Part shown: piece after piece, positions 1,096 through 32,254 of the stretch
Layout of the letters: each line of letters begins with the position of its first letter
How positions within the stretch are numbered: the stretch's first letter is position 1
Source of the DNA: an uncultured virus (IMG/VR IMGVR_UViG_2061766007_001450)
Lineage: Duplodnaviria; Heunggongvirae; Uroviricota; Caudoviricetes
Virus record (IMG/VR): IMGVR_UViG_2061766007_001450
Strand: one strand, 5' to 3'
Length of the DNA stretch: 32,283 nt
Translations under genes and position numbers: made by a program
The notes under the pieces: generated by a model
The model's database searches: none
What the model was told of the DNA's origin: nothing
What the model saw: the letters and a program-made list of their open reading frames with translations, nothing else

Positions 1096-1111
1096 ATTTT
1101 CACGTGAAACA
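1096..1111. promoter_or_regulatory. parS: parS-like palindrome ATTTTCACGTGAAACA (14/16)
   Basis: Match to TGTTTCACGTGAAACA between capsid terminator and next start; allelic to 32239-32254. Confidence 0.7.
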
Positions 1112-1127
1112 AAAGANNNNNNNNNNG

Positions 1128-2437
1128 ATGATACGATTAACAGACATACAAGATGCGCTATTGCATTTGGTTGGTTGGGAGCAGTCATACGTGCCGAGTG
1201 ATTATTTGTCTGATTTGACCGAGAGCGAGAGCGGATTGAAATTTCAGGACGCGCACCCGCTTTGCACACTTGACAACATCAAGGCGATTATCCCCGATAA
1301 TTTCAAATTGCAATATCCCGAATGGAATATTAGTTCGATGTACGCAATAGGCGCAAAGGTTCAATATGGCGGCGTTGTTTGGTATGCAACCGCAGCGAAC
1401 ACGGGCGAGAAACCACCCATCGACGATTGGCACGGCGATTATTCCGAGCAATATTCGGGCAGTTGGCAGCCTTACAACTTCCTCACTGACTACCTTACAA
1501 AACTTACGAAAAACGGCATCGCTCAAATGGTTCAAAATTGGTTGACAATGAAAAAAACATCAGCCGAAACAAAGAGCCTTTTGGAGCGGCGCACGTTCTT
1601 TGACGGCGCGGGACGTATCGCAGCAGCGCAAAACAACAGCGGCAAAATTGTTGGCTTTGAGATTGTGCCGGTGCGGTCTATGGGCGTGACAATGAAGATT
1701 GAAAAAATAGGTCTGCAAATGACCGGCGGCACGGGCATTGTAAAGATGTATTTATTTCACTCCTCGCAGCCTGACCCGATTAAAACATTTGATTTGGACT
1801 TTACAAAGACAAATGGCGGGTTTCAATGGTTTACGCTTACCGATTGTTATCTTCCTTACATTGCAGACAGCAACAACGCGGGCGGAGCGTGGTATCTTTG
1901 TTACAATCAAAACGACTTGCCCGATGGTATGAAAGGCATCAATGTTTCAAAGGATTGGAGCAGAGAGCCGTGCGGCACTTGTAACATCGGCAACCTTGAA
2001 ACATGGCGGCAACTGACAAAATATATGCAAATATCGCCCTTTGCCGTTCCCGCCTTGCAGACGTTTGCGGAATATCCCGAATTGTGGGACATCGAAAGAA
2101 ACATTTACACCAACACCTGCAACTATGGCATTAATTGTGAGGTGTCGGTAGGTTGCGACTTGACCGATTTTATTATCAGTCAAAGGAATTTGTTTGCAGA
2201 CGCTTTGCANNNNNNNNNNNNNNNNNNNNNNNNNNNNNNNNNNNNNNNNNNNNNNNNNNNNNNNNNNNNNNNNNNNNNNNNNNNNNNNNNNNNNNNNNNN
2301 NNNNAGATGCAAAGCACCCTGACGGCTTGGGTCAGAAACTCAAAAAGATTTACAACGCTCTCGAAGTTGACACAAACGGTCTCGACCGTATTTGTCTGAC
2401 TTGCAACAATGGCGGCGTTAAATATAGGACTGTGTAG
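1128..2437 (+). CDS. Virion structural/head-associated protein, variant copy of 30909..32225 (frame broken by N-gap)
   Basis: MIRLTDIQDALLHLVGWEQSY...NNGGVKYRTV nearly identical to the right-end gene; directly follows the capsid gene. Confidence 0.75.
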
Positions 2438-2472
2438 TAATAGAAGTTTTTGTTTTTTTTGTTTTGTCTAAC

Positions 2473-2498
2473 GCACTCGGTTTGTGCCGAGTGCTTTT
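2473..2498 (+). terminator. Intrinsic terminator GCACTCGG/CCGAGTGC + TTTT
   Basis: Perfect 8-bp stem followed by T run after stop at 2437. Confidence 0.7.
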
Positions 2499-3736
2499 AA
2501 ATGTTGATTATGACGATAGCGGGATTGATAGACGGCGCAAAGAAATTCTTACAAGACGTTGAGAGCGGGCGGTTAATTCAGAATTGCNNNNNNNNNNGCC
2601 GACGTTTAACTGATGCTGTCCGGTCTCGGCTTGCATCCTTTTCATTGCGTCCATCAATGCGTTTGTCTTGCTGATTAACTGCTCCGATTTCTCGGCTGCA
2701 TCTCTTTCGGCTTGTGACATTGCATTAATGCGGATTTTGTTTAATGCGTATTGCGCCGANNNNNNNNNNCCTCTCTGCTTGGCTCATTGCATTGATACGG
2801 ATTTTGTTTAATGCGTATTGTGCCGATAAAGCGTTATAACTTCCCGCCGTGGCGTTTGCCAATTTCGCCTGNNNNNNNNNNAGAAATAAGTTGCTCGGAT
2901 TTTTCCGCTGCGTCCCTCTCTGCTTGTGACATTGCATTAATGCGGATTTTGTTTAATGCGTATTGCGCCGATAAAGCGTCGTAACTGCCCGCCGTGGCAC
3001 GTGCGAGTTTTGCCTGCAATTTCTCAATCTTGTTTTGCTCTTGCTGTGCCAATTTGAGTTCTTGCAATGCCTTTTTGTTTTGCGTTTCCGCTGNNNNNNN
3101 NNNNNNNNNNNNNNNNNNNNNNNNNNNNNNNNNNNNNNNNNNNNNNNNNNNNNNNNNNNNNNNNNNNNNNNNNNNNNNNNNNNNNNNNNNNNNNNNNNNN
3201 NNNNNNNNNNNNNNNNNNNNNNNNNNNNNNNNNNNNNNNNNNNNNNNNNNNNNNNNNNNNNNNNNNNNNNNNNNNNNNNNNNNNNNNNNNNNNNNNNNNN
3301 NNNNNNNNNNNNNNNNNNNNNNNNNNNNNNNNNNNNNNNNNNNNNNNNNNNNNNNNNNNNNNNNNNNNNNNNNNNNNNNNNNNNNNNNNNNNNNNNNNNN
3401 NNNNNNNNNNNNNNNNNNNNNNNNNNNNNNNNNNNNNNNNNNNNNNNNNNNNNNNNNNNNNNNNNNNNNNNNNNNNNNNNNNNNNNNNNNNNNNNNNNNN
3501 NNNNNNNNNNNNNNNNNNNNNNNNNNNNNNNNNNNNNNNNNNNNNNNNNNNNNNNNNNNNNNNNNNNNNNNNNNNNNNNNNNNNNNNNNNNNNNNNNNNN
3601 NNNNNNNNNNNNNNNNNNNNNNNNNNNNNNNNNNNNNNNNNNNNNNNNNNNNNNNNNNNNNNNNNNNNNNNNNNNNNNNNGGCAAGGTTCTGAAATATTG
3701 ATATTGTTGTTTCTTCCATAACGGCGCAAATATAAT

Positions 3737-3752
3737 TGTTTCACGTGAAAAA
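3737..3752. promoter_or_regulatory. parS: parS-like palindrome TGTTTCACGTGAAAAA (15/16)
   Basis: Intergenic, 2 nt from a minus-strand TATATTTG element (3727-3734); allelic to 28742. Confidence 0.75.
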
Positions 3753-3754
3753 TC

Positions 3755-4628
3755 CTAATTTTTTTTCAGTTGTTTTTTCTTAATTTTTATTTGCTCTCTG
3801 CCGTATTCGTAGAGGTTGTAAAACTCCATAGTCGTAAGGCTTTTAACGTCCTTATTGGTGTACTCCGATAAATACAGACAAAGCCTCTCGAAATTCTTTT
3901 CATATCGGATTTCTGCATTGTCCTTGCCGACAAATGATTTTGGTTTCACGTGCAACAATAACGCCTGCGTNNNNNNNNNNGGATAAATACAGACAAAGCC
4001 GCTCAAAATTCTTTTCGTATCGGATTTCTGCATTATCCTTGCCGACAAATGATTTTGGTTTCACGTGCAACAATAACGCCTGCGTCAATCGTTCAATCTT
4101 CGCCGCATCGCCCTCGCCGCTAATGCTCTGCAACATTGCAAGTGTGCGCGATTTCAATAGGTCATAATATTCTTTGTCGCTCTCGTCGTCGAATAAGTCT
4201 GCAAAATAGGTTTTCAACTCGTCATCAAGTCTTTTTTTTTTCGCATCTACATTTGCATCAACCTCGCCGACGGTTGCATCTTTCAGAATGTCCGCAACCT
4301 TTTGTAATTCACTGTCAGTCGTGCCGGTCGGCTTGCCATCCAATTCCGCCACCAATGCCGCAAATGCCAACAATCGCGGAGAAACGCCATTGAGGATAAA
4401 GTTAAAATTTTGGCGTAGATTGTCAAGTTCAATTTGGGCAAGGTCGATTTTTTTACCGCCAACATACGCCCTCGCCTTATACAAATGACGGTCAACCGCC
4501 GCCATATCTCCGCCGATACCTGCATCAATCAAAAGGCACTTCATAAACTTATGATAGCGTACAATCGGCATATCCTCAATGCCATCAAAGATTGATGCGG
4601 TGTGTTTTCCAATTTTTATTGTCTGCAT
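3755..4628 (-). CDS. Probable tail assembly chaperone, divergent variant of 28760..29524 (duplicated segment around gap 3971-3980)
   Basis: Clear homology to the 254-aa ORF at 28760-29524 and same gene neighbourhood; contains parS-like GGTTTCACGTGCAACA at 3942 and 4057. Confidence 0.55.
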
Positions 4629-4643
4629 TGTTGTTATTCTATT

Positions 4644-4659
4644 TGTTACACGTGAAACA
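4644..4659. promoter_or_regulatory. parS: parS site TGTTACACGTGAAACA (perfect match to TGTTNCACGTGAAACA)
   Basis: Abuts the stop codon at 4660; allelic to 29537. Confidence 0.8.
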
Positions 4660-4929
4660 TTATTGCAATTTTCTGCAAATAGGCGTTGCCAATACCGCCG
4701 TGGCGATTGCCCACCAATCGCCGATTATCGCCGCCGCAATGATGGCGATAATCAAAGACAGCCACCACGACAAACAAAAATCGCAATGCGCCAACTCCGA
4801 AATTAAATCGCTGCCGTGAACCTGCAACCATTCAACGATGCCAATCTTTTTGAATAGCAACAAAAAGAATGATGCAACCAAAGCCACGGCAACCGCTATT
4901 ATCAAGTAAGCCATAGTCATTCCTCGCAA
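4660..4929 (-). CDS. Small membrane protein with CxxC (DUF1360-like), variant copy
   Basis: Hydrophobic helices plus CDFCLSWW; near-identical to 29553..29822. Confidence 0.65.
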   Translation of the reverse strand: MRGMTMAYLIIAVAVALVASFFLLLFKKIGIVEWLQVHGSDLISELAHCDFCLSWWLSLIIAIIAAAIIGDWWAIATAVLATPICRKLQ

Positions 4930-7693: not shown

Positions 7694-7986
7694 TTTGATA
7701 TATTTGTAGGATTAACAAATTCTACACCGCTATCCTCGCACAATTCATTGAACTTGTCGCCCCACTCCTCATATATGGACAAGTAGCCAATGCCACGGGC
7801 GCAAAATTCATAGCCATCTTTTCTTTTATTTGCAATGCAAATATCTTGAAATTCGTATTGAGTGCCTTGTGGGGCGTAATGTATAAAACACACTACATAA
7901 TACCCCGCATCAAGTAACTCTTTTAAATGCGTATAATCTTTTGATGTCTTATACGCTCCGCTTTTTATACTGTATAATTCCTTCAT
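7690..7986 (-). CDS. Hypothetical protein (98 aa)
   Basis: Clean ORF with ATGA overlap to the next gene. Confidence 0.7.
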   Translation of the reverse strand: MKELYSIKSGAYKTSKDYTHLKELLDAGYYVVCFIHYAPQGTQYEFQDICIANKRKDGYEFCARGIGYLSIYEEWGDKFNELCEDSGVEFVNPTNISK

Positions 7987-7994: not shown

Positions 7995-8010
7995 TGTTTT
8001 ACATGAAACA
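7995..8010. promoter_or_regulatory. parS: parS-like palindrome TGTTTTACATGAAACA (14/16)
   Basis: Occupies 16 of the 24 intergenic bp between the GT32 stop and the next ATG. Confidence 0.65.
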
Positions 8011-8715: not shown

Positions 8716-9614
8716 TGATTTTTCGTTTTTTCACGTGAAACAAATCCGTCAAACGCTGTTTTTATACAACGATTTAACGCTAACTTATATGCCTTTGGTT
8801 GCAGTTCCCTTGCATCCTTGCCCGCTCTGATTATCCACTTGGCGGCATAATCATTGTGCCACCCTAACTCATTTTCCGCCTTATAGAGCGAAAAGGCTTT
8901 TTCTTTGTCTGCATCTGTTACAATGACTGCCGCCATCAATCCTTTTTCTGTCAGAAAATTGGCGATTGTTACATCGTCAGGCGGAATTTTGAAAATAAGT
9001 TTGCCGGTTGTCTTATAAGTGTCATAACATTCCCGCGTTTTTTCTGCGGGCGTTTTTGTCGGTGTCGGTGGCAATGTCTTTTGCATTTTAGGCTGCGTCG
9101 CCTTGATGTTGGTATATGCAACATCGCGGCGTTTTTTATACGCCCTCAACACCTTGCAAAGATACTCGGCATTGAGATTTTGGTAATGGCTGCGGTCAGG
9201 CTCTCCGTTGCCGTTAATCGGCAAATAATTGTCGAGGTCGCCAACGGTTAACAGTTCAAACGCTGTTTTCACGTCCTCAATGGTGAGGTCGTAAAAGTGG
9301 CGTTTAAGAACGTCCGCCAAGCGCACTACAATATATTGCCATTCTGCATCGTCCGCCGGTCGCTTGTACCCAACATCAATGCTTATAAATCGGAAACATT
9401 GATTAACGGCTGCGGCGATTTCCGTTGGCTGCATTTTGCCGATGGTGGTATTTTTTGCAGCCGACAAAATCAAAGTATCAACATTGCTTAATTGCGTGGT
9501 GTTGGTGTCCGCCAATCGTTGCAGCGCGGTTGTTACCGCCGATTGTCGGGGCGGTTGCTCGGGCTGCACCGTTGCCAATGCCTTGATGTTTATGTTTGCA
9601 AATGCCGTTTCCAT
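8712..9614 (-). CDS. Hypothetical protein, possibly replication accessory (helicase-loader-like)
   Basis: 300-aa ORF downstream of the initiator gene; function inferred from position only. parS-like TTTTTCACGTGAAACA at 8727-8742 lies in its 3' end. Confidence 0.45.
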   Translation of the reverse strand: METAFANINIKALATVQPEQPPRQSAVTTALQRLADTNTTQLSNVDTLILSAAKNTTIGKMQPTEIAAAVNQCFRFISIDVGYKRPADDAEWQYIVVRLADVLKRHFYDLTIEDVKTAFELLTVGDLDNYLPINGNGEPDRSHYQNLNAEYLCKVLRAYKKRRDVAYTNIKATQPKMQKTLPPTPTKTPAEKTRECYDTYKTTGKLIFKIPPDDVTIANFLTEKGLMAAVIVTDADKEKAFSLYKAENELGWHNDYAAKWIIRAGKDARELQPKAYKLALNRCIKTAFDGFVSREKTKNQ

Positions 9615-9938: not shown

Positions 9939-9954
9939 TGTTTTACGTGAAACA
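9939..9954. promoter_or_regulatory. parS: parS-like palindrome TGTTTTACGTGAAACA (15/16)
   Basis: Intergenic, 8 nt upstream of ATG at 9930, next to a GC hairpin. Confidence 0.75.
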
Positions 9955-10350: not shown

Positions 10351-10366
10351 AACAACAAAGATTTTT

Positions 10367-15717: not shown

Positions 15718-15975
15718 TTAAGCCGTTTTAACTGTTTCACGTGCAACATCGCCGTTCCACTCCAATATGTCGTTGGGGGTAACGCCGAGGATTGACGCAA
15801 TAATGTTGATGTTGTTTGGTGCGATGCGTGTTGTCCTGCCGGTCATAATGTTTTGCAGGTTTATACACCTCTGTAAAGCGGTGGCTTTCGGCCACAAGGC
15901 TTCACCGATTTTTTCACGTGCCGCCATTTCCTTTTCACGCGGCATTGATTTAAGTATTTCTTTAATTCGTTTCAT
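15718..15975 (-). CDS. XRE/Cro-like HTH regulator
   Basis: 85 aa with IASILGVTPNDIL XRE-type C-terminal helices; first gene after a promoter; parS-like TGTTTCACGTGCAACA at 15733-15748 in its 3' end. Confidence 0.7.
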   Translation of the reverse strand: MKRIKEILKSMPREKEMAAREKIGEALWPKATALQRCINLQNIMTGRTTRIAPNNINIIASILGVTPNDILEWNGDVARETVKTA

Positions 15976-18246: not shown

Positions 18247-18356
18247 TGTTTTACGTGAAACATATTTTTACGGCGGCAATTTATAATTTATTTTTCAAAT
18301 ATCAAAATTAATTTTTATATTTTTGCTCAAAATTAATTTTTTTTTCACGTGAAACA
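18247..18356. promoter_or_regulatory. parS: Divergent control region with two parS-like sites (18247-62 and 18341-56, both 15/16)
   Basis: TGTTTTACGTGAAACA and TTTTTCACGTGAAACA flank an AT-rich spacer; TAnnTTTG elements at 18303-10 (minus) and 18361-68 (plus). Confidence 0.75.
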
Positions 18357-20100: not shown

Positions 20101-20859
20101 ATGATTGCTGAATGTCTTTTGATTAAAAATGAAAATCGCTATTTGTTAGAGCATCTGACATATAACGCGGCAGCGGGTATCAACCATTTTTTCATTTACG
20201 ACAATTTGAGCGACACCCCCGTCGTCGATTATTTGCGCGAAAACGCCCGCGAATTTCTCAACATCTGCACAATAACGCGGTATCATTCTAACAACAATCT
20301 CCAACTTGATTGCTATGCAGATTATTTGAGGAAATACCGCAACGTTGATTGGACGGTGTTTTGCGATACGGACGAATGTTTCACGGGAAACATTCGCGAC
20401 GCGGTGGCGGAATACGGCGGCAATTATAATTGTCTGTCATTTTCTCCAATTTTGCACGGCTGCAACGGCAACATTTATGATAATGGCGGCGGAATGTTCG
20501 AGAGATTTGAAAGTGATGTTATTAATCCTGCACATCATTGGTATAAATTACTTTCTCGCACAAATAGCATTACCTTTCAGGGTGTACATGATAATAAAAT
20601 GATTTCGCAAAAAATTATTCGTGTTTCACGTGAAAATTGCCAATGCGTATTACATCATTTTCGTTTTCGCTCCTTTGAGGAATGGGTTGCGAAAATAAAA
20701 CGCGGCGTGGCGTTTAATTGCTCAAAAAATCAACACAAAATAAATGAATTTTTTGAATTTAACAGAAATTTGAGCGCAAATAATCCCGATGTAATATCTG
20801 TAATGAAACGTTACGACGTTACATTACAGACATTACAAACAATACCTGTTATTCTCTAA
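20101..20859 (+). CDS. GT-A fold glycosyltransferase (GT2_4/GT92-like)
   Basis: CLLIKNENRYL, GINHFFIYDN, WTVFCDTDE, LHHF motifs; contains parS-like sites at 20377-92 (15/16) and 20622-37 (14/16). Confidence 0.85.
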   Translation: MIAECLLIKNENRYLLEHLTYNAAAGINHFFIYDNLSDTPVVDYLRENAREFLNICTITRYHSNNNLQLDCYADYLRKYRNVDWTVFCDTDECFTGNIRDAVAEYGGNYNCLSFSPILHGCNGNIYDNGGGMFERFESDVINPAHHWYKLLSRTNSITFQGVHDNKMISQKIIRVSRENCQCVLHHFRFRSFEEWVAKIKRGVAFNCSKNQHKINEFFEFNRNLSANNPDVISVMKRYDVTLQTLQTIPVIL

Positions 20860-24727: not shown

Positions 24728-24743
24728 TGTTTCACGTGAAATT
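24728..24743. promoter_or_regulatory. parS: parS-like palindrome TGTTTCACGTGAAATT (14/16)
   Basis: Makes up nearly all of the 16-bp spacer between the tape-measure stop and the next ATG. Confidence 0.7.
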
Positions 24744-27700
24744 ATTGTTTTCTTATTCGGCGGGTGCAATTCTTGTACACTTCAACCAACATTCCGTTGT
24801 CGGTGTAGCATCGTGTTTCGCCTTGCTTTTTTATCGCCCTTACATCGTCGGCAAGCCCTGAAATGTCGGGACTTTCGCCGCCGACAAAAGTCGTTAGGGC
24901 TTTATCATCTGCCTTGATGACATTTTCTAAATTGCCGCTGTTAATGCTGTTTATTAATGACGGAATTACAGAGCGATAACGGCGCGAATTTCTCTTATTG
25001 ATAACGGCAAAAAACTCGCCGCCCTCGGCTCTGCGCCTTGTGCCGTCGGGTTTAGTTCCCAAATCAATATCGTTGCCGCTTGCATGGCTGCCGCCGTGTA
25101 ACATCTCTACCGTACCCTCGCCGTACTGCTCTGATTTTGTCATCTGCATTGATTTTATTTTTGCCGCCGCGAATGACGCCCACATTACAGCCACAGCCGG
25201 AATTGCATAAGGAAAACCAAGTTGCGCCCAAATCTTTGCCGACGCTGTAACAAGATTGCCCGCTTGTTGCAAGGTCTGAATGGCGGCTTGCCTTTTCTGC
25301 GCTTTCTCCTGCTCTTTTAAGGCTTTTTCTTGGTTGTTTTTCGCCATATCCAACTCCTTTTGAGCCGTTGCGACATTGTTGGCATACCCTTTCTCGCGGA
25401 GTTCAATTTCTTTATCCAACGCCTTTTGTGCGGCATCAACCTCTTTTTCAGATTCCGCCACCTTAGCATCTGCCGCCGCCGTGTACGCCTCGAAATAGGA
25501 ATTAAGTTGCTCTTTTGCGAATTCGATAGAACTATTAATGCCCTCACGCGTATCATCGTCGAGTTCCAGCCCGAAAAGGTCATAAATGTTGTCAATCTTG
25601 GGGCGGTCGAGTTCGTCTTGCAACCGCTGTATTGTGTTACGCATTGTCTGCTCCTCGATGTCGCTCATCTTATTGTTTGCAATAGCGTTTAGTTCGAGTA
25701 TTTTTTCAAGGCGTTCTTTTTCCGCTTTTATTCTGAAATCATTTTTTGCCCTCTCTGATTTTTTAAGCAAATCAAATTCAGACTGCGCCAAGGCTTGTTG
25801 GCTGTCAAATATCGCCAACTGCTCTTTCAGATATTTGTCGGCGATTTCACCCTTTTTGATGTCAAACGCCGCCGAAATATCCGCCTTTTGCGTTTCGGGG
25901 GCTTTCGTCAATGCAATTTCACGTGAAACATCATTCAACGCCAACATCAATTTTTTCTCATCTTCGCTGCCCGCCTTGACGGTCTGCAATTTAAGTTCTA
26001 ATGCTTGTTTTTGAAGTTCGAGTTCCTTGCGGTATCTATCCTCTTCGATTTTGATAATTTCATCAGTCTGCTTTTTTTCCAATGCCGCAATGGTGGCGTT
26101 GATGTTTTCGCGCGCCGTTTCCGTCAAGTCTTTTTGCGTTTCCAACGTGTGTTTTAAATCTTCGATTTGCCGTGTATAATAGAGATTTGTCTTTATTGTT
26201 TTTTGCTGCCAACTATCCTCTATTAACTGTAATTGCGCGTCCTCTGCGGTACGCCTTGCCGACAATTCCGCGCGGTATGCTCTTTCCGCGTCCTGCTGCG
26301 CCTTTTGCTGTGCTTTTTCGCGCTCGGCGGCAAATTTCTTTTGCGTTTCCTGATATTTTTTGAGTGCCTTTGCGTATTCCTCGGCCTCATCTTCAATATC
26401 CAAATCATACTCCTTGCCGCCAAGTTTTTTGATATTCATTCCCTTTGTGCCGCCTGCGCCTTGTCCCGTTGCGGTCGTGCCGCTCTTGGTTGCGCCGCCC
26501 TTTGCCTTTTCCTCGTCGGTTTGCGGGGTGAGATTAACGTTTTGGATTGTTGCCTCGGCTTCTTTGTAGTTATTGACAACCGCGTTAACGGTTGTCTTAA
26601 CTTGGTCGGCGAGGGAATTTAACGCCCTATTCCAACCCTCTTTGATTTTGTCCCAATCGAATGATAAAACGCCCACAACCAATTCGCCCAAACCAAACAA
26701 GGCTTTTGCGACGTTCTTGATTGCAGAAATGACGATTTCAAAGTTGGTTTTGACGGAAAAAGTAATAGCGGCGATTGCTGACCTAAAATCCTCTGAGGTT
26801 TCCCACAACTCGGAAAAATACTCTTTTACTTCCTTGTATGTTGATGCAACTTCGCGGATAACCATTGTGAGCCACTGCACCACGCTGCGCAATATGCCTT
26901 GCCCCTCGTTGATTTCGAGCATAAAGTCGTCCCACGCGCTGCCAAGGCTCTTGATGTCGCCCTCCAAATTGTCGCCCATCACCTCGGACATTTCTTTCGC
27001 TGTGCCGGTCGTATCATTGAGCGCGTCGCGTAACTCCAAAACATCGCCTGCGCCTTTCAAAAACGTGTTAAACGCTGCGACGGAGCGTTTGTCGGATAGT
27101 TCCAATGATTTTGCAAGGTCTATGCCCTCCGCGTCAAGTTGTTGCAGACCTGCAACTAAATCATTCAAGTTTTTGACGGGGTGTCCTATTGATTTTGCAA
27201 GGTCGCCGTTTGCATCTGCAAGATTTAACAAGATATTGCGTGTCGCTGTCGCCGCCGAACTTGCATCAAAACCCGCATTGGCAAGTTGCCCTAACAATGC
27301 CAAAACGTCCTCTATGTTAAAGCCAAAGGCATTTGCCACGGGGGACACTTGGCTTAATGCCGTATCAAGGTAACTGAATGATAATGCCGACTTCGTGGTT
27401 GATGCCGCCAATTTGTCCACAAACTCCTGAGTATCGGTTGTATCTTTCTGAAACATTCTTAATGCCGCGCCCGTCATACTTGACGCGTCGGCAAGGCTCG
27501 CGCCAGTGGCTTGTGCGAAATATAACACGTTTTCGGTCATATTCTTAATATCGCCTTGACTGTAACCGAGTTTTGCCAATTCTGTTTGAAGTTGGATTAC
27601 CTCGGTGGCGGTGTAGGTAGTGGTCGCGCCAAGTTGCCGCGCTTGGTCGGTCAATTCTTTTAAACCATCTTTCGTGCTGCCCGTGATTGATTGTAATGTA

Positions 27701-28449
27701 GATACAGCCTTTTGATAGTCTCTCGCCGTATCAATGCCGCTAATCATTGCGGTCGTGAAACCACCAACGGCGGCAACCGCCAAACCCATCGGTCCTGCGC
27801 CTGCCGCTAATGNNNNNNNNNNNNNNNNNNNNNNNNNGCTTGCCAACTGTCCGACGTTGCCGCTCAATCCTTTCATTGCCTTGCCTAAGCCGTCCAATGC
27901 GCTTTGATAGTTACCGACATTTAATTGATGCTGCCCTGTCTCGGCTTGCATCCGTTTCATCGCGTCATAAAGTGCGTTTGTTTTGCTGATTAATTGCTCT
28001 GATTTTTCCGCCGCGTCCCTCTCGGCTTGGCTCATAGCATTGATACGAATTTTGTTCAATGCGTATTGAGCTGACAAAGCGTTAAAACTGCCCGCCGTGG
28101 CATTTGCTAATTTCGCGGTCAGTTTTTCGATGCGATTTTGTTCCTGCTGTTGTAATTTGAGTTCGAGTAACGCCTTTGTATTTTGCTGCTCGGCGGCTGT
28201 AACCTTTTTTTGTTCCGCCGTCAATTTCTCCGCCGCCGCTGCTGCCTCATTGATGGTCTTTCGTCCCTCGTCCGTTGCACCCGACGCACCTTTAAGCGAT
28301 GCAGTCACTTGCAACGCCTGCTCTTTGAGTTTTGCGGCGGTATCAGAATACACCTTTTGCAAATCCTCTAATTGTTTAATCAAGTCCGAAATCGAATTGT
28401 CGGGCTTGATTAAGTCGGAGTATTTTATAGGGTTCGGCTGCTCATTCAT
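24742..28449 (-). CDS. Tail tape measure protein (TP901-type core)
   Basis: 1235 aa, helical and Ala-rich; ARQLGATTTYTATEV...GDNLEGDIKSLGSAWD core; parS-like AATTTCACGTGAAACA at 25915-30. Confidence 0.92.
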   Translation of the reverse strand: MNEQPNPIKYSDLIKPDNSISDLIKQLEDLQKVYSDTAAKLKEQALQVTASLKGASGATDEGRKTINEAAAAAEKLTAEQKKVTAAEQQNTKALLELKLQQQEQNRIEKLTAKLANATAGSFNALSAQYALNKIRINAMSQAERDAAEKSEQLISKTNALYDAMKRMQAETGQHQLNVGNYQSALDGLGKAMKGLSGNVGQLASXXXXXXXXXLAAGAGPMGLAVAAVGGFTTAMISGIDTARDYQKAVSTLQSITGSTKDGLKELTDQARQLGATTTYTATEVIQLQTELAKLGYSQGDIKNMTENVLYFAQATGASLADASSMTGAALRMFQKDTTDTQEFVDKLAASTTKSALSFSYLDTALSQVSPVANAFGFNIEDVLALLGQLANAGFDASSAATATRNILLNLADANGDLAKSIGHPVKNLNDLVAGLQQLDAEGIDLAKSLELSDKRSVAAFNTFLKGAGDVLELRDALNDTTGTAKEMSEVMGDNLEGDIKSLGSAWDDFMLEINEGQGILRSVVQWLTMVIREVASTYKEVKEYFSELWETSEDFRSAIAAITFSVKTNFEIVISAIKNVAKALFGLGELVVGVLSFDWDKIKEGWNRALNSLADQVKTTVNAVVNNYKEAEATIQNVNLTPQTDEEKAKGGATKSGTTATGQGAGGTKGMNIKKLGGKEYDLDIEDEAEEYAKALKKYQETQKKFAAEREKAQQKAQQDAERAYRAELSARRTAEDAQLQLIEDSWQQKTIKTNLYYTRQIEDLKHTLETQKDLTETARENINATIAALEKKQTDEIIKIEEDRYRKELELQKQALELKLQTVKAGSEDEKKLMLALNDVSREIALTKAPETQKADISAAFDIKKGEIADKYLKEQLAIFDSQQALAQSEFDLLKKSERAKNDFRIKAEKERLEKILELNAIANNKMSDIEEQTMRNTIQRLQDELDRPKIDNIYDLFGLELDDDTREGINSSIEFAKEQLNSYFEAYTAAADAKVAESEKEVDAAQKALDKEIELREKGYANNVATAQKELDMAKNNQEKALKEQEKAQKRQAAIQTLQQAGNLVTASAKIWAQLGFPYAIPAVAVMWASFAAAKIKSMQMTKSEQYGEGTVEMLHGGSHASGNDIDLGTKPDGTRRRAEGGEFFAVINKRNSRRYRSVIPSLINSINSGNLENVIKADDKALTTFVGGESPDISGLADDVRAIKKQGETRCYTDNGMLVEVYKNCTRRIRKQ

Positions 28450-28724
28450 TTCTCTAACTCTATTAATTTATGTTCGATTACTTCCAATATTCGTGAAAAC
28501 CTCGCCAATGCGTCCGTGTTGTCGCTCAATGCCTTGACTAATGCACTGTTAGCGTTTTGCAAATGTTCAATATATTGCGTGGTTAACACGGCGTTGTTTT
28601 TCTCCCTTATCTTCATTTCGTCGAGTAACTTCCGCCCAAACCAAACTATACAAAGGAATAGTACAACGCTAACCGCTACGGGGTAAGCAAGGTTTTGAAA
28701 TATTGATATTGTCGTTTCTTCCAT
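28446..28724 (-). CDS. Holin-like small membrane protein
   Basis: One N-terminal TM helix plus coiled coil (BhlA/UviB-like architecture). Confidence 0.5.
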   Translation of the reverse strand: MEETTISIFQNLAYPVAVSVVLFLCIVWFGRKLLDEMKIREKNNAVLTTQYIEHLQNANSALVKALSDNTDALARFSRILEVIEHKLIELEK

Positions 28725-28731: not shown

Positions 28732-28757
28732 CAAATATAAATGTTTCACGTGAAAAA
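28732..28757 (-). promoter_or_regulatory. parS: -7 element TATATTTG with adjacent parS-like site TGTTTCACGTGAAAAA (28742-57)
   Basis: 15/16 match; same layout as 3727-3752. Confidence 0.7.
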
Positions 28758-28759: not shown

Positions 28760-29524
28760 CTAATTTTTTTTCTGTTGTTTTTTCTGTTGTTTGATTTTTT
28801 CTTTCGCGTATTCGTACAGCGTGTAAAACTCAAAAACAGTCATACTCTTGACAGACGTATTGGTATGCTCCGACAAAGCAATGCAGAGTTTGTCGAAATT
28901 TTTATCAAATACGACTTCCGCGTTATCTCGACCGTAAAACATTCTCGGTTTTACGTGCAACAATAGTTTGTGCGTCAAAATTTCTATTTGTGTAGTATCG
29001 GGGCTTTGCGTGGTGATGCCACGCAATATTAACATCGTCCGCGACTTTAACAAGTCGAAATATTCTTTGTCGCTTTCGTCGTCAAACAACGCGGCAAAAT
29101 ATACTTTTAATTCGTCATCAATCTTTTTTTTTTCGGCATCGACGGCATCATTAACTTCTTTCATTGTCGCTGATTGCAACATTTCTGATACCTTTTGCAA
29201 TGTTGCATCGGTGATGTCGGTCTGCGGCTTTCCGTCAATCTCTGCAACGATAGCGGCAAAGGCTGTCAGTTTCGGCGTGATGTTGTTGCCGACAAACAAA
29301 ATTGCCTGCCGCAAATTTTCAAGTTCGATTTGTGCCAAATCGGGCTTGCCCGCGCTAATATAATACCGCGCCTTATAGAGATGCCGGTCAACGGCGGAGA
29401 TGTCCGAACCAATGCCCGCGTCAACCATCAAACATTTCGTAAATTTATGATAACGCAAAACGGGCATTTCTTCGATTGCATCGTAGATTTTTACCGTATG
29501 CGTTCCAATCTTCATTGTTTTCAT
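28760..29524 (-). CDS. Probable tail assembly chaperone
   Basis: Helical protein upstream of tape measure; C-terminal MTVFEFYTL resembles T-type chaperone domains; central A10 run. Confidence 0.55.
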   Translation of the reverse strand: MKTMKIGTHTVKIYDAIEEMPVLRYHKFTKCLMVDAGIGSDISAVDRHLYKARYYISAGKPDLAQIELENLRQAILFVGNNITPKLTAFAAIVAEIDGKPQTDITDATLQKVSEMLQSATMKEVNDAVDAEKKKIDDELKVYFAALFDDESDKEYFDLLKSRTMLILRGITTQSPDTTQIEILTHKLLLHVKPRMFYGRDNAEVVFDKNFDKLCIALSEHTNTSVKSMTVFEFYTLYEYAKEKIKQQKKQQKKN

Positions 29525-29536: not shown

Positions 29537-29552
29537 TGTTTTACGTGAAACA
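29537..29552. promoter_or_regulatory. parS: parS-like palindrome TGTTTTACGTGAAACA (15/16)
   Basis: Abuts the stop codon at 29553; allelic to 4644. Confidence 0.75.
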
Positions 29553-29822
29553 TTATTGCAATTTTCTGCAAATAGGCGTTGCCAATACCGCCGTGGCTAT
29601 TACCAACCAATCACCTATTATCGTCGCCGCAATGATGGCAACAATCAAAGACAGCCACCACGATAAACAGAAATCGCAGTGCGCCAACTCTGAAACTAAA
29701 TCGCCGCCGTGGACTTGCAACCATTCCACGATGCCAACCTTTTTGAATAGCAACAAAAAGAATGATGCAACCAAAGCCACGACAACCGCTATTAACAAGT
29801 TAATCATAGTCATTCCTCGCAA
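29553..29822 (-). CDS. Small membrane protein with CxxC (DUF1360-like)
   Basis: Hydrophobic helices and CDFCLSWW. Confidence 0.65.
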   Translation of the reverse strand: MRGMTMINLLIAVVVALVASFFLLLFKKVGIVEWLQVHGGDLVSELAHCDFCLSWWLSLIVAIIAATIIGDWLVIATAVLATPICRKLQ

Positions 29823-30373
29823 ATATCCTCCACTCTGATTTCACCCACAAAACGCCATCCGCAATATGGGTGCATTAAATACTGATTGTCAACCTCGGCA
29901 AGTGTAAAGCCTTGAAAAACATTCTCCGCCTTTTCGTACACTCTGTTAACCGTGAATGTACCGCTTTTTAAAAGCATTGAGTTTAGGACGCGCAAAATGT
30001 CCCTCTTAACCAATTCTTTATTTCGCTCGTCCGTCGGCTCAATGCTGCGCATATCCACCCACACGATGAGGCTAACATTTGCACGGATTTCTATTTTCTG
30101 ACCGCGCACACAATCCACATACTGCGGCTCGTCCACGGTAAAAAAGGAATGGTTGTGCAAATCCTTATCGTCGGGGCTAATTTCGATATAGTCATTCTCG
30201 GCTCTGTACACGTTTGGCAAATAGTATTCTTTGCCGTTGATTTCGTGTACAAGTCGCTCCGCAATGCCAAACGCGAAATTTAACCACGGCAAACCCGCGA
30301 TTAAAGCGTCCTGAATTTCACCGACTACGCGGTCAAGTAATTGCGGATTACTTTTTTTTGGTGCGTCGCTCAT
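29810..30373 (-). CDS. Tail terminator/completion-like protein
   Basis: 187 aa; assignment from position in the neck module. Confidence 0.55.
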   Translation of the reverse strand: MSDAPKKSNPQLLDRVVGEIQDALIAGLPWLNFAFGIAERLVHEINGKEYYLPNVYRAENDYIEISPDDKDLHNHSFFTVDEPQYVDCVRGQKIEIRANVSLIVWVDMRSIEPTDERNKELVKRDILRVLNSMLLKSGTFTVNRVYEKAENVFQGFTLAEVDNQYLMHPYCGWRFVGEIRVEDICEE

Positions 30374-30828
30374 TTGAATATTGCCATTTTTAATTCAACC
30401 ATCAACATAGGATAAAGCATATCCCACGCCACTTTATTACGATTTTCGACGGTCAAGCCGAATATCTCTCCGTATTTGTCATAAAGTTTTTGCGCCTTTT
30501 TGTCGGTCGCCTTGAACCATACCGCCTTATTGTCTGCATATACAAAAAAAGACTTATGAAAAGCCTCTGTATCTCGCAACGTCACGCGATTGGTCGGCTG
30601 TCCTTTTTTTTGCTTGATGCTGATTGTGACGGGGCTGTAAGGTTGGTATGACCTAATTGTAACACCAAGGGCATTTTCACCCTCTTTAAACAGTTGCTCC
30701 TCGGTATTCATAGACACAATTTCCTTTTCGTTGAGGGTGATGCAATTCTGAATTAACCGCCCGCTCTCAACGTCTTGTAAGAATTTCTTTGTACCGTCTA
30801 TCAATCCCGCTATCGTCATAATCAACAT
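30370..30828 (-). CDS. Neck/tail completion protein (virion morphogenesis-like)
   Basis: YSPVTISIKQKKGQPTNRVTLRDT motif and position. Confidence 0.6.
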   Translation of the reverse strand: MLIMTIAGLIDGTKKFLQDVESGRLIQNCITLNEKEIVSMNTEEQLFKEGENALGVTIRSYQPYSPVTISIKQKKGQPTNRVTLRDTEAFHKSFFVYADNKAVWFKATDKKAQKLYDKYGEIFGLTVENRNKVAWDMLYPMLMVELKMAIFK

Positions 30829-30830
30829 TT

Positions 30831-30858
30831 AAAAGCACTCGGTTTTTATGCCGAGTGC
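30831..30858 (-). terminator. Intrinsic terminator
   Basis: GCACTCGG/CCGAGTGC stem with TTTT tail on the minus strand. Confidence 0.7.
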
Positions 30859-30908
30859 GTTAGACAAAAAACGTCAATAAACAAAAAACATCCATCAAGT
30901 GATATTAA

Positions 30909-32225
30909 CTATACAGTGCGATATTTAACGCCGCCATTGTTGCAAGTCAGACAAATACGGTCGAGACCGTTTGTGTCAACTTCAAGGGCATTGTAAATCT
31001 TTTTCAACTTCACACCCAAGCCGTCAGGGTGTTTTGCGTCCGTATTGCCGTCAAGTTCATACAGAATGTCAAGCCTTGACACGTTGGATTGATTGCGGTT
31101 TACCCTTGTGTCGGGGTTCATCGCCATCGTGCGCAATGCAATGTAGGCAACTTGATGCTGCAAAGCGTCTGCAAATAAATTCCTTTGACTGATAATAAAA
31201 TCGGTCAAATCACAGCCTACCGACACTTCACAATTAATGCCATAATTGCAGGTGTTGGTGTAGATATTCCTTTCGATGTCCCACAATTCGGGATATTCCG
31301 CAAACGTCTGCAAGGCGGGNNNNNNNNNNAACTTTGTAATTTGCCGCCACGTTTCAAGGTTGCCGATGTTGCAAGTGCCGCACGGTTCTCTGCTCCAATC
31401 TTTTGAAACGTTGATGCCTTTCATACCCTCGGGCAAGTCGTTTTGATTGTAACAAAGATACCACGCGCCGCCCGCATTGTTGCTGTCTGCAATGTAGGGA
31501 AGATAACAATCGGTAAGCGTAAACCACTGAAAACCGCCATTTGTTTTGGTAAAATCCAAATCAAAGGTTTTAATCGGGTCGGGCTGCGAGGAATGGAAAA
31601 GATACATTTTGACCGTACCCGTTCCGCCGGTCATTTGCAGACCGATTTTCTCAATCTTCATTGTTACACCCATAGACCGCACCGGCACAATCTCAAAGCC
31701 AACAATTTTGCCGCTGTTGTTTTGCGCTGCTGCGATACGTCCCGCGCCATCAAAGAACGTGCGACGCTCCAACAATGATTTTGTTTCGGCTGATGCTTTT
31801 TTCGCTGTCAACCAATTTTGAACCATTTGGGCGATGCCGTTTTTTGTAAGTTTTGTAAGGTAGTCAGTAAGGAAGTTATAAGGCTGCCAACTGCCCGAAT
31901 ATTGCTCCGAATAATCTCCGTGCCAATCGTCGATGGGCGGCTTTTCGCCCGTGTTCGCTGCGGTTGCATACCATACCACGCCACTACATTGAACCTTTGC
32001 GCCTTTTGCATACATCGAGTTAATATTCCATTCGGGGTATTGCAATTTGAAATTGTCGGGGATTATCGCCTTGATATTGTCGAGGGTGCAAAGTGGGTGC
32101 GCATCTTGAAACTTCAATCCGCTCTCGCTCTCTGTCAAGTCGGACAAATAATCGCTCGGCACGTATGACTGCTCCCATCCTACCAAATGTAAAAGCGCAT
32201 CTTGTATGTCTGATAGTCTTATCAT
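30909..32225 (-). CDS. Virion structural/head-associated protein with CBM5/12-like insert
   Basis: Start MIRLSDIQ; follows the capsid gene in the left-hand copy; PEWNINSMYAKGAKVQCSGVVWYA resembles a ChtBD3 module. Confidence 0.75.
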   Translation of the reverse strand: MIRLSDIQDALLHLVGWEQSYVPSDYLSDLTESESGLKFQDAHPLCTLDNIKAIIPDNFKLQYPEWNINSMYAKGAKVQCSGVVWYATAANTGEKPPIDDWHGDYSEQYSGSWQPYNFLTDYLTKLTKNGIAQMVQNWLTAKKASAETKSLLERRTFFDGAGRIAAAQNNSGKIVGFEIVPVRSMGVTMKIEKIGLQMTGGTGTVKMYLFHSSQPDPIKTFDLDFTKTNGGFQWFTLTDCYLPYIADSNNAGGAWYLCYNQNDLPEGMKGINVSKDWSREPCGTCNIGNLETWRQITKXXXXPALQTFAEYPELWDIERNIYTNTCNYGINCEVSVGCDLTDFIISQRNLFADALQHQVAYIALRTMAMNPDTRVNRNQSNVSRLDILYELDGNTDAKHPDGLGVKLKKIYNALEVDTNGLDRICLTCNNGGVKYRTV

Positions 32226-32238
32226 CTCGTTTATCTTT

Positions 32239-32254
32239 TGTTTCACGTGAAAAT
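32239..32254. promoter_or_regulatory. parS: parS-like palindrome TGTTTCACGTGAAAAT (14/16)
   Basis: 13 nt upstream of ATG 32225. Confidence 0.7.

What the first reader, a model, noticed from the sequence alone, without database searches (positions are those of the whole stretch)
1096..32254. Phage genome studded with host-type parS centromere sites but no parAB in view: candidate ParB hijacking/sponge system
Seen: 18 matches at >=14/16 to TGTTTCACGTGAAACA starting at 1096, 3737, 3942, 4057, 4644, 7995, 8727, 9939, 15733, 18247, 18341, 20377, 20622, 24728, 25915, 28742, 29537 and 32239, plus a 13/16 at 28947. Thirteen lie in the non-redundant 7-32 kb. A uniform-base estimate (1129 words/4^16 x ~30 kb) gives ~0.01 expected. 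Allelic pairs are retained between strains, in one case with different tolerated substitutions (4644 TGTTAC.. vs 29537 TGTTTT..). Known: this 16-mer is the widespread chromosomal parS consensus that loads ParB CTP clamps (and in many bacteria SMC); chromosomes carry a handful near oriC, and parABS phage-plasmids normally use their own ParB and unrelated sites. Inference: the phage uses host ParB to position or segregate its DNA (carrier/episomal state), or titrates ParB during replication to disrupt host segregation. I do not recall a described phage with this layout.
Basis: partly seen in the sequence, partly recalled or inferred. Interest (0 to 1): 0.92.

Follow-up and report, generated by a model that had tools for sequence, protein, structure and literature searches.

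The report
Phage genome tiled with host-type parS
A small lineage of gut Bacteroidales-type tailed phages carries about 25 to 30 near-perfect copies of the bacterial chromosome's centromere word (parS) spread over its whole genome without encoding the protein that reads it, so it most likely borrows the host's ParB, a trick so far described only for phage phi29 and at much lower density.

Summary
The window has 18 sites within 2 mismatches of TGTTTCACGTGAAACA (0.01 expected); 13 lie in the non-redundant 7-32 kb.

Related genomes carry the same sites. Two complete ones, 43.8 and 43.0 kb, have 28 and 24. A 32-kb partial one has 22. About 110 more distant relatives have none.

All 16 positions are constrained. 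Sites are 98% conserved against 86-88% flanks, and some are built into coding sequence at the cost of amino-acid changes. They sit mostly in tiny gaps just upstream of start codons and are spaced more evenly than chance.

No canonical ParB, ParB HTH domain or ParA is found on the phage contigs. A ParB_N-only gene in an accessory methylase cassette does not co-vary with the sites.

Sampled Bacteroidales chromosomes carry 1-2 sites of this consensus (62 of 81 genomes, control 0).

Best reading: host ParB docking sites, for episome partition or coating and/or ParB titration. Binding is untested. Phi29 is a published precedent, with five host parS sites (PMC2731898). I therefore rate this a new variant of a known kind.

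The parts
1096..1111 (.). parS-like site ATTTTCACGTGAAACA (2 mismatches). Inverted strain-variant copy of the site at 32239.
   Evidence: the flank is the reverse complement of the flank at 32239.
3737..3752 (.). parS-like site TGTTTCACGTGAAAAA (1 mismatch). Allelic to 28742.
   Evidence: repeat D4.
3942..3957 (.). Intragenic parS-like site GGTTTCACGTGCAACA (2 mismatches) in the phrog_8914 virion protein gene copy.
   Evidence: repeat D8. The same sequence is at G001 9687 and G004p 32039.
4057..4072 (.). Scaffold duplicate (115 bp away, across an N run) of the site at 3942.
   Evidence: (D8, 96%).
4644..4659 (.). parS-like site TGTTACACGTGAAACA (1 mismatch). Allelic to 29537 but with a different substitution.
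   Evidence: D2, 92%. The same variant is in G004p at 32626.
7995..8010 (.). Intergenic site (2 mismatches). It directly follows the stop codon of gene 8011-8715 (-) and lies 8 nt upstream of the ATG of gene 7690-7986 (-).
   Evidence: Orthologous site in G004p at 13392 and in G005p.
8727..8742 (.). Site (1 mismatch) in the last codons of gene 8712-9614 (-), 11 nt upstream of the ATG of the glycosyltransferase gene 8011-8715 (-).
   Evidence: Orthologues at G001 30722 and G004p 14332.
9939..9954 (.). Intergenic site (1 mismatch), 8 nt upstream of the ATG of gene 9616-9930 (-) and just downstream of a GC-rich hairpin.
   Evidence: Orthologues at G001 31622 and G004p 15228.
15733..15748 (.). Site (1 mismatch) that encodes the C-terminal residues of the XRE-type HTH gene 15718-15975 (-). 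It lies 17 nt upstream of the ATG of gene 15245-15715 (-).
   Evidence: Orthologue at G004p 19650, with flank identity 70% and the site 16/16.
18247..18262 (.). Intergenic site (1 mismatch), 7 nt upstream of the likely ATG (18239) of the phrog_8193/LRR gene on the - strand.
18341..18356 (.). Intergenic site (1 mismatch) in the divergent region before gene 18430-20097 (+). A TAnnTTTG-like box follows 4 nt downstream on the + strand.
   Evidence: Tandem sites at the matching place in G001 (18224/18255), G004p (40577/40608) and G005p.
20377..20392 (.). Intragenic site TGTTTCACGGGAAACA (1 mismatch) in the GT2 glycosyltransferase gene 20101-20859 (+). In this reading frame the consensus would give a TGA stop, and the mismatch removes it.
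   Evidence: The frame was worked out from the coordinates.
20622..20637 (.). Intragenic site (2 mismatches) in gene 20101-20859 (+), read as V-S-R-E-N.
24728..24743 (.). Intergenic site (2 mismatches). It overlaps the stop codon of the tape-measure gene 24742-28449 (-) and lies 2 nt upstream of the ATG of gene 22623-24725 (-).
   Evidence: Orthologues at G001 5451 and G004p 27812.
25915..25930 (.). Intragenic site (2 mismatches) inside the tape-measure gene, encoding D-V-S-R-E-I.
   Evidence: the site-bearing genomes G001 and G004p read LDVSREIA and the window's own gene reads NDVSREIA, while 54 of 59 hits (site-less relatives) read LENERQTA. The site is 15/16 conserved against a 68% flank.
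28742..28757 (.). Intergenic site (1 mismatch), 17 nt upstream of the ATG of gene 28446-28724 (-). TATATTTG follows 2 nt downstream on the sense strand.
   Evidence: Orthologues at G001 9482 and G004p 31834.
28947..28962 (.). Decayed intragenic site GGTTTTACGTGCAACA (3 mismatches), the counterpart of 3942/4057.
29537..29552 (.). Intergenic site (1 mismatch). It directly follows the stop codon of gene 29553-29822 (-) and lies 12 nt upstream of the ATG of gene 28760-29524 (-).
   Evidence: Orthologues at G001 10274 and G004p 32626.
32239..32254 (.). Intergenic site (2 mismatches), 13 nt upstream of the likely ATG (32225) of the phrog_8189 gene.
   Evidence: Orthologues at G001 12989, G004p 35341 and G005p.

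Best explanation
The sites are real, selected, chromosomal-type parS sequences. They are tiled about every 1.5 kb over the whole genome of a Bacteroidales-type siphovirus lineage that has no parS-reading ParB of its own. The most likely binder is therefore the host's chromosomal ParB.

Inferred mechanism: once the phage DNA is in the cell, host ParB dimers dock on the 24-28 sites. Each site has one perfect arm and one slightly defective arm. To the extent that CTP-dependent loading works at such sites, ParB then slides over the short distances between neighbouring sites.

This would have two effects. It would turn the phage DNA into a large ParB-coated complex that the host ParA system can position and hand down to daughter cells, giving a carrier or episomal state without phage-encoded partition genes. 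It would also make every phage copy hold more than ten times the ParB sites of the host chromosome, so that replication would drain ParB from the host origin.

Shown: site identity, selection, distribution, absence of a phage ParB/ParA, and the host-order consensus. Inferred: binding by host ParB and everything downstream of it.
For: 1. Enrichment. The window has 18 sites against 0.01 expected. G001 has 22 and the backwards-pattern control 0. The two complete genomes have 29 (28 unique) and 24 on about 44-kb contigs. Their 2.1-2.5 Mb bins hold only 3-4 further hits elsewhere, and those include perfect parS next to the bins' own parA/parB genes.

2. All 16 positions are read. With a perfect 12-bp core, one flank is TG and the other is relaxed. 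With one core mismatch, both flanks are TG. The consensus of the position counts is exactly TGTTTCACGTGAAACA.

3. Selection.
- Site columns are 251/256 identical against flanks 5351/6044 (G004p vs G001).
- Site columns are 110/112 identical against flanks 1991/2330 (G004p vs window).
- The tape-measure gene changed LENERQTA, as in 54 of 59 hits, to LDVSREIA to hold a site.
- In the more distant G005p only 5 of 10 aligned sites persist, yet the total stays at 24. Number and density are kept, not individual positions.

4. Genome-wide tiling. The spacing CV is 0.59 against 0.95 for random placement (p about 0.002) in G004p, and 0.69 (p about 0.05) in G005p. The largest gaps are 3.9 and 5.2 kb.

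5. No phage reader. PF17762 and TIGR00180 gave no hit on C116, C125 or G001 even at E up to 10, apart from the N-domain of one 193-aa protein. AAA_31 (ParA) gave none at E up to 0.1.

6. Host lineage.
- Cultured relatives infect Bacteroides, Parabacteroides and Alistipes.
- Only 3 of 54 genes have a Shine-Dalgarno-like 4-mer, and leaders are 44% A.
- 62 of 81 sampled genomes of the order hold exact TGTTNCACGTGNAACA (control 0 of 81), mostly 1-2 per genome. At least 18 genomes hold the exact T-type 16-mer.

7. Precedents. Phi29 carries five host parS sites used via Spo0J (PMC2731898, passages). SGI1 carries parS mimics that bind a ParB encoded elsewhere (PMC10954446, abstract). P. aeruginosa ParB binds sites with one intact arm (PMC5961200, passages).
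Against: - No binding data exist, and the host species is unknown. The MAG bins that hold the phage contigs are labelled Clostridia-type, which I take to be mis-binning.
- None of the sites is a perfect palindrome: 0 of 28, 24, 22 and 18. A position-independent model expects about 6 and 4 perfect sites in the two complete genomes (my arithmetic). Host chromosomes and phi29-like phages do carry perfect sites.
- In P. aeruginosa, half-site binding did not give spreading (PMC5961200), so clamp loading at these sites is uncertain.
- One or a few sites would be enough for partition.
- About 110 related phages of the same general host group have no sites, so the trait is not generally needed.
- Placement just upstream of start codons, and two promoter-like contexts, also fit a gene-regulatory reading.
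- The unknown-function proteins of the clade were not all excluded as binders.
Confidence: 0.55

Rival explanations
1. A phage-encoded DNA-binding protein reads the palindrome. Candidates are an unrecognised HTH protein, the XRE-type protein, or the ParB_N-only protein together with a partner. It would act as a genome-wide regulator or transcription roadblock, like KorB on RK2 or the stoperators of cluster A mycobacteriophages. The identity with parS would reflect capture or convergence.
For: - Sites sit in short gaps at gene boundaries: at least half outside ORFs for 17/29, 17/24 and 12/22 sites, against about 3 for random placement.
- They lie 0-17 nt upstream of ATGs.
- Tandem sites precede the structural operon, where TTTG and TATTTTTG boxes flank a site, and a TATATTTG box follows another site.
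- The trait is confined to one clade that also has many clade-specific genes of unknown function.
- A 16-bp palindrome is a typical operator for an XRE dimer. An XRE gene is present, and a site is embedded in its 3' end.
- Earlier notes of this scan describe phages whose dispersed palindromes go with their own orphan ParB.
Against: - A palindromic 16-mer has 65,536 possible forms, and this one equals the host-order parS at every position.
- No ParB HTH domain is found on the phage contigs even at E up to 10.
- The ParB_N-only gene is missing from the syntenic place in G001, which keeps 22 sites. Its homologues occur in 5 site-less relatives that have no dispersed palindrome.
- An XRE homologue with a similar helix region is present in site-less PDS1.
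- Site turnover with a constant number fits a bulk function better than gene-specific operators.
- Most sites have no promoter-like box nearby.
Confidence: 0.25
2. The motif works in RNA: an intercistronic hairpin that serves as a processing, stabilising or translational-control element.
For: Most sites lie between a stop codon and the next start codon on the transcribed strand. The word can form a 6-bp stem with a 4-nt loop.
Against: - The hairpin is weak: -3.9 kcal/mol for the consensus and -0.3 to -1.6 for the observed variants.
- Substitutions are not compensatory. G2T, C15A and the AT/AA flanks break pairs.
- The loop and stem are conserved in sequence rather than in pairing.
- On the sense strand the hairpin-breaking G11A occurs 9 times, and its wobble-preserving mirror never occurs. 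That points to selection against the RNA structure.
- Sites also occur and persist inside genes.
Confidence: 0.04
3. Another host protein reads the sites. This could be a ParB paralogue such as a Noc-like protein, or an unrelated dimeric regulator that recognises a CACGTG-centred palindrome. The outcome would be unrelated to partition, for example membrane tethering or protection from a host defence.
For: The same facts that point to a host factor apply: no phage reader and a strong match to a host-type word. The complete lack of perfect sites could mean the preferred target differs slightly from parS.
Against: The position counts give the parS consensus itself, not the Noc-type word (the Noc site is recalled, not taken from a call). 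No such Bacteroidales factor is known to me, and I tested none.
Confidence: 0.1

Closest known systems
Host parS sites on Bacillus phage phi29 (five sites; Spo0J-dependent entrapment of the phage genome in the spore; Meijer et al. 2005 as cited in PMC2731898, passages read)
   Same: A phage without integrase and without its own parAB carries chromosomal-type parS sites that a host ParB can read. The phage genome is thereby handled by the host segregation machinery.
   Different: Here there are 24-28 in about 43 kb, tiled over all modules and mostly at gene boundaries.
- The hosts here are most likely non-sporulating Bacteroidales, so spore entrapment cannot be the purpose.
- None of the sites here is a perfect palindrome, whereas the phi29-like gut contigs I looked at carry perfect ones.
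- The two virus families are unrelated.
SGI1 parS mimics that hijack the IncC plasmid ParABS (PMC10954446, abstract read)
   Same: A mobile element without the ParB carries copies of another replicon's parS. It gains stability and, through copy number, titrates the system away from its owner.
   Different: SGI1 has two sites and targets a helper plasmid's ParB. Here there are dozens of sites, and the target would be the chromosome's ParB.
KorB and its 12 OB operators on IncP plasmid RK2
   Same: Many copies of one palindrome are dispersed over a small replicon, some at promoters, and are read by a ParB-family clamp.
   Different: RK2 encodes KorB itself. No ParB-family DNA reader is encoded here. 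The word here is the chromosomal parS, not a private operator.
Stoperators of cluster A mycobacteriophages (recalled, no paper read)
   Same: Twenty to thirty-odd copies of one short site sit in short intergenic gaps throughout a siphovirus genome.
   Different: Stoperators are asymmetric, orientation-dependent and bound by the phage's own repressor. These sites are palindromic and equal a host consensus.
Chromosomal parS sites and half-sites bound by ParB as a nucleoid-associated protein in P. aeruginosa (PMC5961200, passages)
   Same: Sites have one intact arm and one substituted arm, are bound by chromosomal ParB and are scattered over a replicon.
   Different: That case is the host's own chromosome, with hundreds of 7-bp half-sites. 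Here nearly full 16-bp sites sit on an invading replicon.

Membership tests
Chromosomal-type parS (ParABS centromere site) | 16-bp palindrome matching TGTTNCACGTGNAACA | tested here: met
   Consensus of 28 and 24 sites is TGTTTCACGTGAAACA, with every position constrained. Individual sites carry 1-2 mismatches.
Chromosomal-type parS (ParABS centromere site) | The bacteria concerned use this consensus | tested here: met
   62 of 81 sampled genomes of the order of a MAG titled Bacteroidales have an exact match, and the control is 0 of 81. The exact host species is unknown. PMC10197239 (passages) reports consensus parS in all 12 genomes studied, the two Bacteroidetes strains among them.
Chromosomal-type parS (ParABS centromere site) | Specific binding and CTP-dependent loading of ParB | not testable with these tools
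   Needs EMSA, BLI or ChIP.
Chromosomal-type parS (ParABS centromere site) | Cognate parAB on the same replicon, with sites clustered near the origin | tested here: not met
   No TIGR00180, PF17762 or AAA_31 hit on the phage contigs. Sites are dispersed about every 1.5 kb.
phi29-type exploitation of host ParB by a phage | Phage genome with several host-type parS sites and no phage ParB | tested here: met
phi29-type exploitation of host ParB by a phage | Host ParB-dependent segregation of the phage genome into a spore or daughter cell | not testable with these tools
   Spore entrapment is implausible for a Bacteroidota-type host (inferred). Inheritance by daughter cells is untested.
KorB/OB-type global regulon | The element encodes the ParB-family protein that reads the sites | tested here: not met
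   There is only a sub-threshold ParB_N-only protein (23-26 bits against a cut-off of 26.3), with no HTH, in a methylase cassette. It is absent from G001, which has 22 sites, and present in 5 site-less relatives.
KorB/OB-type global regulon | Sites placed at or near promoters | tested here: inconclusive
   Two loci show Bacteroidota-type TAnnTTTG boxes next to a site. Most sites show none (read by eye). No transcription start data are available.
Stoperator-type repressor sites | Asymmetric site with a fixed orientation relative to transcription, bound by the phage repressor | tested here: not met
   The sites are palindromic. The perfect arm is 5' in 17 and 14 sites and 3' in 9 and 9. The XRE homologue also occurs in a site-less relative.

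The most novel reading that the evidence does not exclude
The phage uses a lattice of slightly weakened host parS sites to load or dock host ParB along its entire chromosome. This would create a silenced, compacted and ParA-partitionable episome. It would amount to a carrier (pseudolysogenic) state in gut Bacteroidales built entirely from a host protein, with no integrase and no partition genes. Once replication multiplies the sites, the lattice would flip into a ParB sponge that uncouples the host origin from its segregation machinery.
Probability: 0.2. Interest if true: 0.85.

Novelty: new variant of a known kind. Interest (0 to 1): 0.66.

Why it matters
If host ParB does bind these sites, this would be the first case outside the phi29 family, and the first in Bacteroidota, of a phage exploiting the chromosome segregation clamp.

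It would also be a different design. The phage has 24-28 sites tiling the genome, against 1-2 on the host chromosome.

That offers a concrete, testable molecular handle on how 'virulent' gut Bacteroidales phages persist in their hosts. It also gives a natural experiment on how ParB behaves on arrays of imperfect sites.

The sites would be a ready-made tool too, for example as ParB-GFP labels for phage DNA in Bacteroides.

Tried and rejected
- No whole genome is held for the window.
- Megablast of 25 kb against cultured phages gave no match.
- A single-protein search of viral contigs found nothing. The alignment-based search worked.
- Cultured relatives BKO1-3, AS73P1 and PDS1 have no site and no over-represented palindrome of their own. 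The same holds for five relatives that carry the ParB_N-like gene.
- The 137 short loci around exact parS in viral contigs showed only 25-46 bp matches centred on the motif itself to the window; the tblastx step of that script printed nothing.
- Protein-atlas look-ups of two clade-specific proteins (288 aa and 223 aa) gave only unnamed clusters.
- Sequencing-run search: no RNA holder is listed. DNA holders are labelled bovine gut, cow dung or gut metagenomes, and only 2 runs of one sample hold most of the stretch. I did not lay reads.
- I considered whether the total lack of perfect sites means active avoidance. A saturating mutation-selection balance can also explain it, so I leave it open.
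- Literature searches for a phage with host-type parS gave the following:
  - One search returned 0 papers.
  - Searches returned nothing on phages beyond SGI1 and general ParB work.
  - One search returned 3 papers, none on phage-borne sites.
  - led to the phi29 work.
  - I found no description for Bacteroidota phages in these searches.
- Structure prediction and complex prediction were not used.

Full report
**1. Observation**

There are 18 matches to TGTTTCACGTGAAACA with at most 2 mismatches, at the stated starts. One hundred dinucleotide-preserving shuffles gave a mean of 0.01 and never more than 1. One search adds the 13/16 site at 28947.

The window is a strain-mixed scaffold with 1345 N in 19 runs.
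- Bases 2.6-6 kb are a 76-95% identical direct copy of 27.9-30.8 kb.
- Bases 1-2.4 kb are an inverted copy of the region at and just beyond the right end of the window.

None of the 18 is a perfect 16/16.

**2. What the DNA is**

PHROGs and Pfam show a siphovirus. Recognised genes include:
- tape measure protein, tail and virion proteins, and part of the major capsid gene
- Erf, an exonuclease subunit, a replication initiator and an XRE-type HTH protein
- two glycosyltransferases and two DUF285/LRR proteins

The terminase and portal genes lie outside the window.

The phrog_8189 protein is 60-65% identical to proteins of cultured phages of Bacteroides, Alistipes and Parabacteroides, and 45-47% identical to the B40-8/B124-14 group. 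In the complete relative G004p only 3 of 54 genes have a Shine-Dalgarno-like 4-mer upstream, against 12% in random 17-mers. Leaders are 44% A. Established knowledge of SD-poor translation initiation in Bacteroidota fits these numbers.

**3. Relatives**

Only a narrow clade carries the motif.
- Cultured relatives BKO1-3, AS73P1 and PDS1: 0 sites and no other over-represented palindrome.
- 80 IMG/VR loci (1.41 Mb) around the marker gene: only the three with 95-96% marker identity carry sites (7, 4 and 13). The other 77 have neither a site nor the 10-bp core.
- 35 loci from genome assemblies: L223 (95% marker identity) has 14, L224 (95%) has 1 in 1.7 kb and L254 (74%) has 8. One further locus has a single 2-mismatch hit without the core. 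The other 31 have none.

Whole records:

| Record | Size and status | Sites (≤2 mismatches) |
|---|---|---|
| G001 | 32,349 bp, CheckV 72% complete | 22 (backwards control 0) |
| G004:C116 | 43,954 bp | 29 (28 unique) |
| G005:C125 | 43,184 bp | 24 |

Both of the larger contigs have a 141-bp terminal direct repeat, so they are complete circularly closed assemblies.

The bins that hold these contigs are labelled Clostridia-type. They have their own perfect parS next to their own parA/parB genes on other contigs. I read the phage contigs as mis-binned.

**4. Anatomy of the sites**

*All positions are read.* When the 12-bp core TTTCACGTGAAA is perfect, one flank is TG and the other is relaxed (TT, AT, AA or GA). 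When the core has one mismatch, both flanks are usually TG. The position counts give the parS consensus at every position. This is the pattern of binding sites held at a threshold of total binding energy by a dimeric DNA reader.

*Placement.* At least half of the site lies outside ORFs of 70 aa or more for 17 of 29, 17 of 24 and 12 of 22 sites. Random placements average about 3 and never exceed 11 in 2000 trials. On the transcribed strand a typical site follows a stop codon by 0-3 nt and precedes the next ATG by 0-17 nt. In the window this holds for 9 of the 13 non-redundant sites. One more lies in a divergent intergenic region and three are intragenic.

*Intragenic sites.* They use the two reading frames that avoid the TGA in the word (V-S-R-E or F-H-V-K). 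In the third frame they carry the one mismatch that removes the stop, as at window 20377 and G001 3863.

*Spacing.* It is more even than random.
- G004p: mean 1565 bp, CV 0.59 against 0.95 (p about 0.002).
- G005p: CV 0.69 (p about 0.05).

Part of this may follow from the preference for gene boundaries.

*Strand asymmetry.* On the sense strand G11 to A occurs 9 times in the two complete genomes, and its mirror image never occurs. A DNA-binding dimer cannot tell the two apart, but the observed form weakens the RNA hairpin more: -0.4 against -1.6 kcal/mol, with the consensus at -3.9. It also makes the leader more A-rich. So the word is selected in DNA and tolerated, not used, in RNA.

**5. Selection**

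Between G004p and G001, site columns are 251/256 identical against 5351/6044 for flanks. Between G004p and the window the figures are 110/112 against 1991/2330.

Individual cases are sharper. The site at G004p 8120 is 16/16 in G005p with 62% flanks.

Inside the tape-measure gene, the site-bearing genomes G001 and G004p read LDVSREIA and the window's own gene reads NDVSREIA. There, 54 of 59 hits, all site-less relatives, read LENERQTA, and the more distant G005p, which has no site there, reads NEVAKNIA.

In G005p only 5 of 10 well-aligned sites persist, yet the genome still has 24. Sites turn over while their number is kept.

**6. Who reads them**

Six-frame HMM searches of the two complete phage contigs and G001 gave:
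- no HTH_ParB (PF17762) hit, even at E up to 10
- no TIGR00180 hit beyond the N-domain noted below
- no ParA-type AAA_31 hit

The same searches did find the bins' own genes and the control genomes.

The only ParB-related gene is a 193-aa ParB_N-only protein. It scores 23-26 bits against a cut-off of 26.3 and has a GGNMRYRA motif. It lies in a 2.6-kb cassette with a C5 cytosine methylase and a SAM methyltransferase, between the TerS-like and TerL genes.
- The cassette is absent from the syntenic place in G001, which has 22 sites.
- Homologues of the protein occur in five site-less relatives, and these have no dispersed palindrome.

ParB-fold proteins associated with methyltransferases are reported as common in phages (PMC12704722, passages).

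The XRE protein is only 50-52% identical among the site-bearing genomes. It has a homologue with a similar helix region in site-less PDS1.

I could not exclude every protein of unknown function. Two atlas look-ups were uninformative.

**7. The host side**

In 81 sampled genomes of the order of a MAG titled Bacteroidales, 62 hold an exact TGTTNCACGTGNAACA. The backwards control is 0 in all 81.
- Most have 1-2 sites, often as pairs about 40 bp or about 1.9 kb apart.
- Position 5 is C or T.
- At least 18 genomes show the exact T-type 16-mer among the rows listed.

PMC10197239 (passages) reports consensus parS sites in all 12 genomes of a mouse-gut consortium, which includes Bacteroides caecimuris, where a parS cluster goes with a large origin domain. 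It also says no known condensin homologue was found in its two Bacteroidetes strains.

So one infecting phage genome carries more than ten times the parS-like sites of a host chromosome.

**8. Interpretation**

The identity with the host-order consensus over all 16 positions, together with the absence of any phage ParB DNA-binding domain, makes host ParB the most economical reader (confidence 0.55).

Maintenance of number, density and even spread, with turnover of individual positions, suggests a bulk function:
- coating or partition-complex formation on the phage DNA, for inheritance in a carrier state, and/or
- titration of ParB as the sites multiply.

A gene-specific operator function fits this pattern less well.

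The main rival is an unrecognised phage-encoded reader acting as a KorB-like or stoperator-like global regulator (0.25). It is favoured by the gene-boundary placement and by two promoter-like contexts, but it has no candidate protein that co-varies with the sites. An RNA role is unlikely (0.04).

What remains unexplained is that no site in any of the four genomes is perfect. Position-independent frequencies predict about 6 perfect sites in G004p and about 4 in G005p (my arithmetic). Host chromosomes and phi29-like phages do carry perfect sites. A saturating mutation-selection balance could explain this. So could selection for sites that dock ParB without strong clamp loading. In P. aeruginosa, sites with one intact arm bind ParB without spreading (PMC5961200).

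**9. Comparison and novelty**

Phi29 carries five host parS sites, and Spo0J is involved in segregating its genome into the prespore (PMC2731898, passages, which cites the original 2005 work that I did not read).

SGI1 likewise carries parS mimics for a ParB encoded on another replicon (PMC10954446, abstract).

What is new here:
- the phylum, with a non-sporulating host
- the number and genome-wide tiling of sites
- their fit into intercistronic gaps
- the uniform imperfection of the sites

My searches found no description of this for Bacteroidota phages.

Earlier notes of this scan describe other phages with dispersed palindromes, but those have their own orphan ParB. I tested that idea here and it was not met.

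**Verdict:** a real, selected feature. It is a new variant of a known kind, with interest 0.66.

Noticed in passing
IMG/VR records G091-G095 (loci L264, L265 and L009, L017, L052, L071, L079): Five small viral contigs of 12-18 kb each carry 3-6 chromosomal-type parS sites. Two of the contigs have inverted terminal repeats and are rated 100% complete. Fifteen of the 25 sites are perfect 16-mers, and none of the contigs has a TIGR00180 ParB. G091 is phi29-like: collar/connector proteins, a DNA polymerase and a terminase. This fits the published phi29-Spo0J paradigm and shows it is widespread in gut phi29-like phages.
   Followed up: partly
window 10276-10367, 13977-14068, 15990-16081, 16945-17036: Four copies (67-85% identical) of a 92-nt AT-rich element lie in the gaps of the early region. 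They have Bacteroidota-type promoter-like features and none contains the parS-like word. They are probably the early promoters/operators.
   Followed up: no
window 10336-11301: A roughly 490-bp tandem duplication (88-92% identical; repeats D3 and D10) spans an N run in front of and into the replication-initiator-like gene. It may be real iteron-like structure or a scaffold artefact.
   Followed up: no
window 17157-18239 (-) and 18430-20097 (+): Two divergently oriented paralogues share an N-terminal phrog_8193 domain (annotated 'major head protein'). The + strand copy, 555 aa, continues into DUF285/BspA-type leucine-rich repeats. In G001 and G004p the N-domain gene is separate. These look like modular surface or decoration proteins.
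   Followed up: no
G004:C116 4500-7149 (loci L258); absent between G001 25291 and 25643: An accessory 2.6-kb cassette sits between the TerS-like and TerL genes. It holds a ParB_N-only protein, a SAM methyltransferase and a C5 cytosine methylase. It is present in two complete genomes of the clade and missing in a third.
   Followed up: partly
all site-bearing genomes (window, G001, G004:C116, G005:C125): Every one of about 90 site instances has at least one mismatch. Nearly all have exactly one perfect arm, TGTTTCAC. On the sense strand the G11A variant occurs 9 times and its mirror never occurs.
   Followed up: partly
window 1-7000: The left 7 kb is a patchwork of strain-variant copies of the structural region, joined by N runs. 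One part is inverted and short pieces are duplicated 79-145 bp apart. This is an assembly or scaffolding artefact, not biology.
   Followed up: yes
window 8011-8715 (-), G001 30000-30710: A phage glycosyltransferase with a DXD sugar-binding region (Gly_transf_sug) sits near a second GT2 enzyme. In relatives there is also a UDP-glucose dehydrogenase-like gene. Together they suggest phage-directed modification of a host surface glycan or of phage DNA.
   Followed up: no
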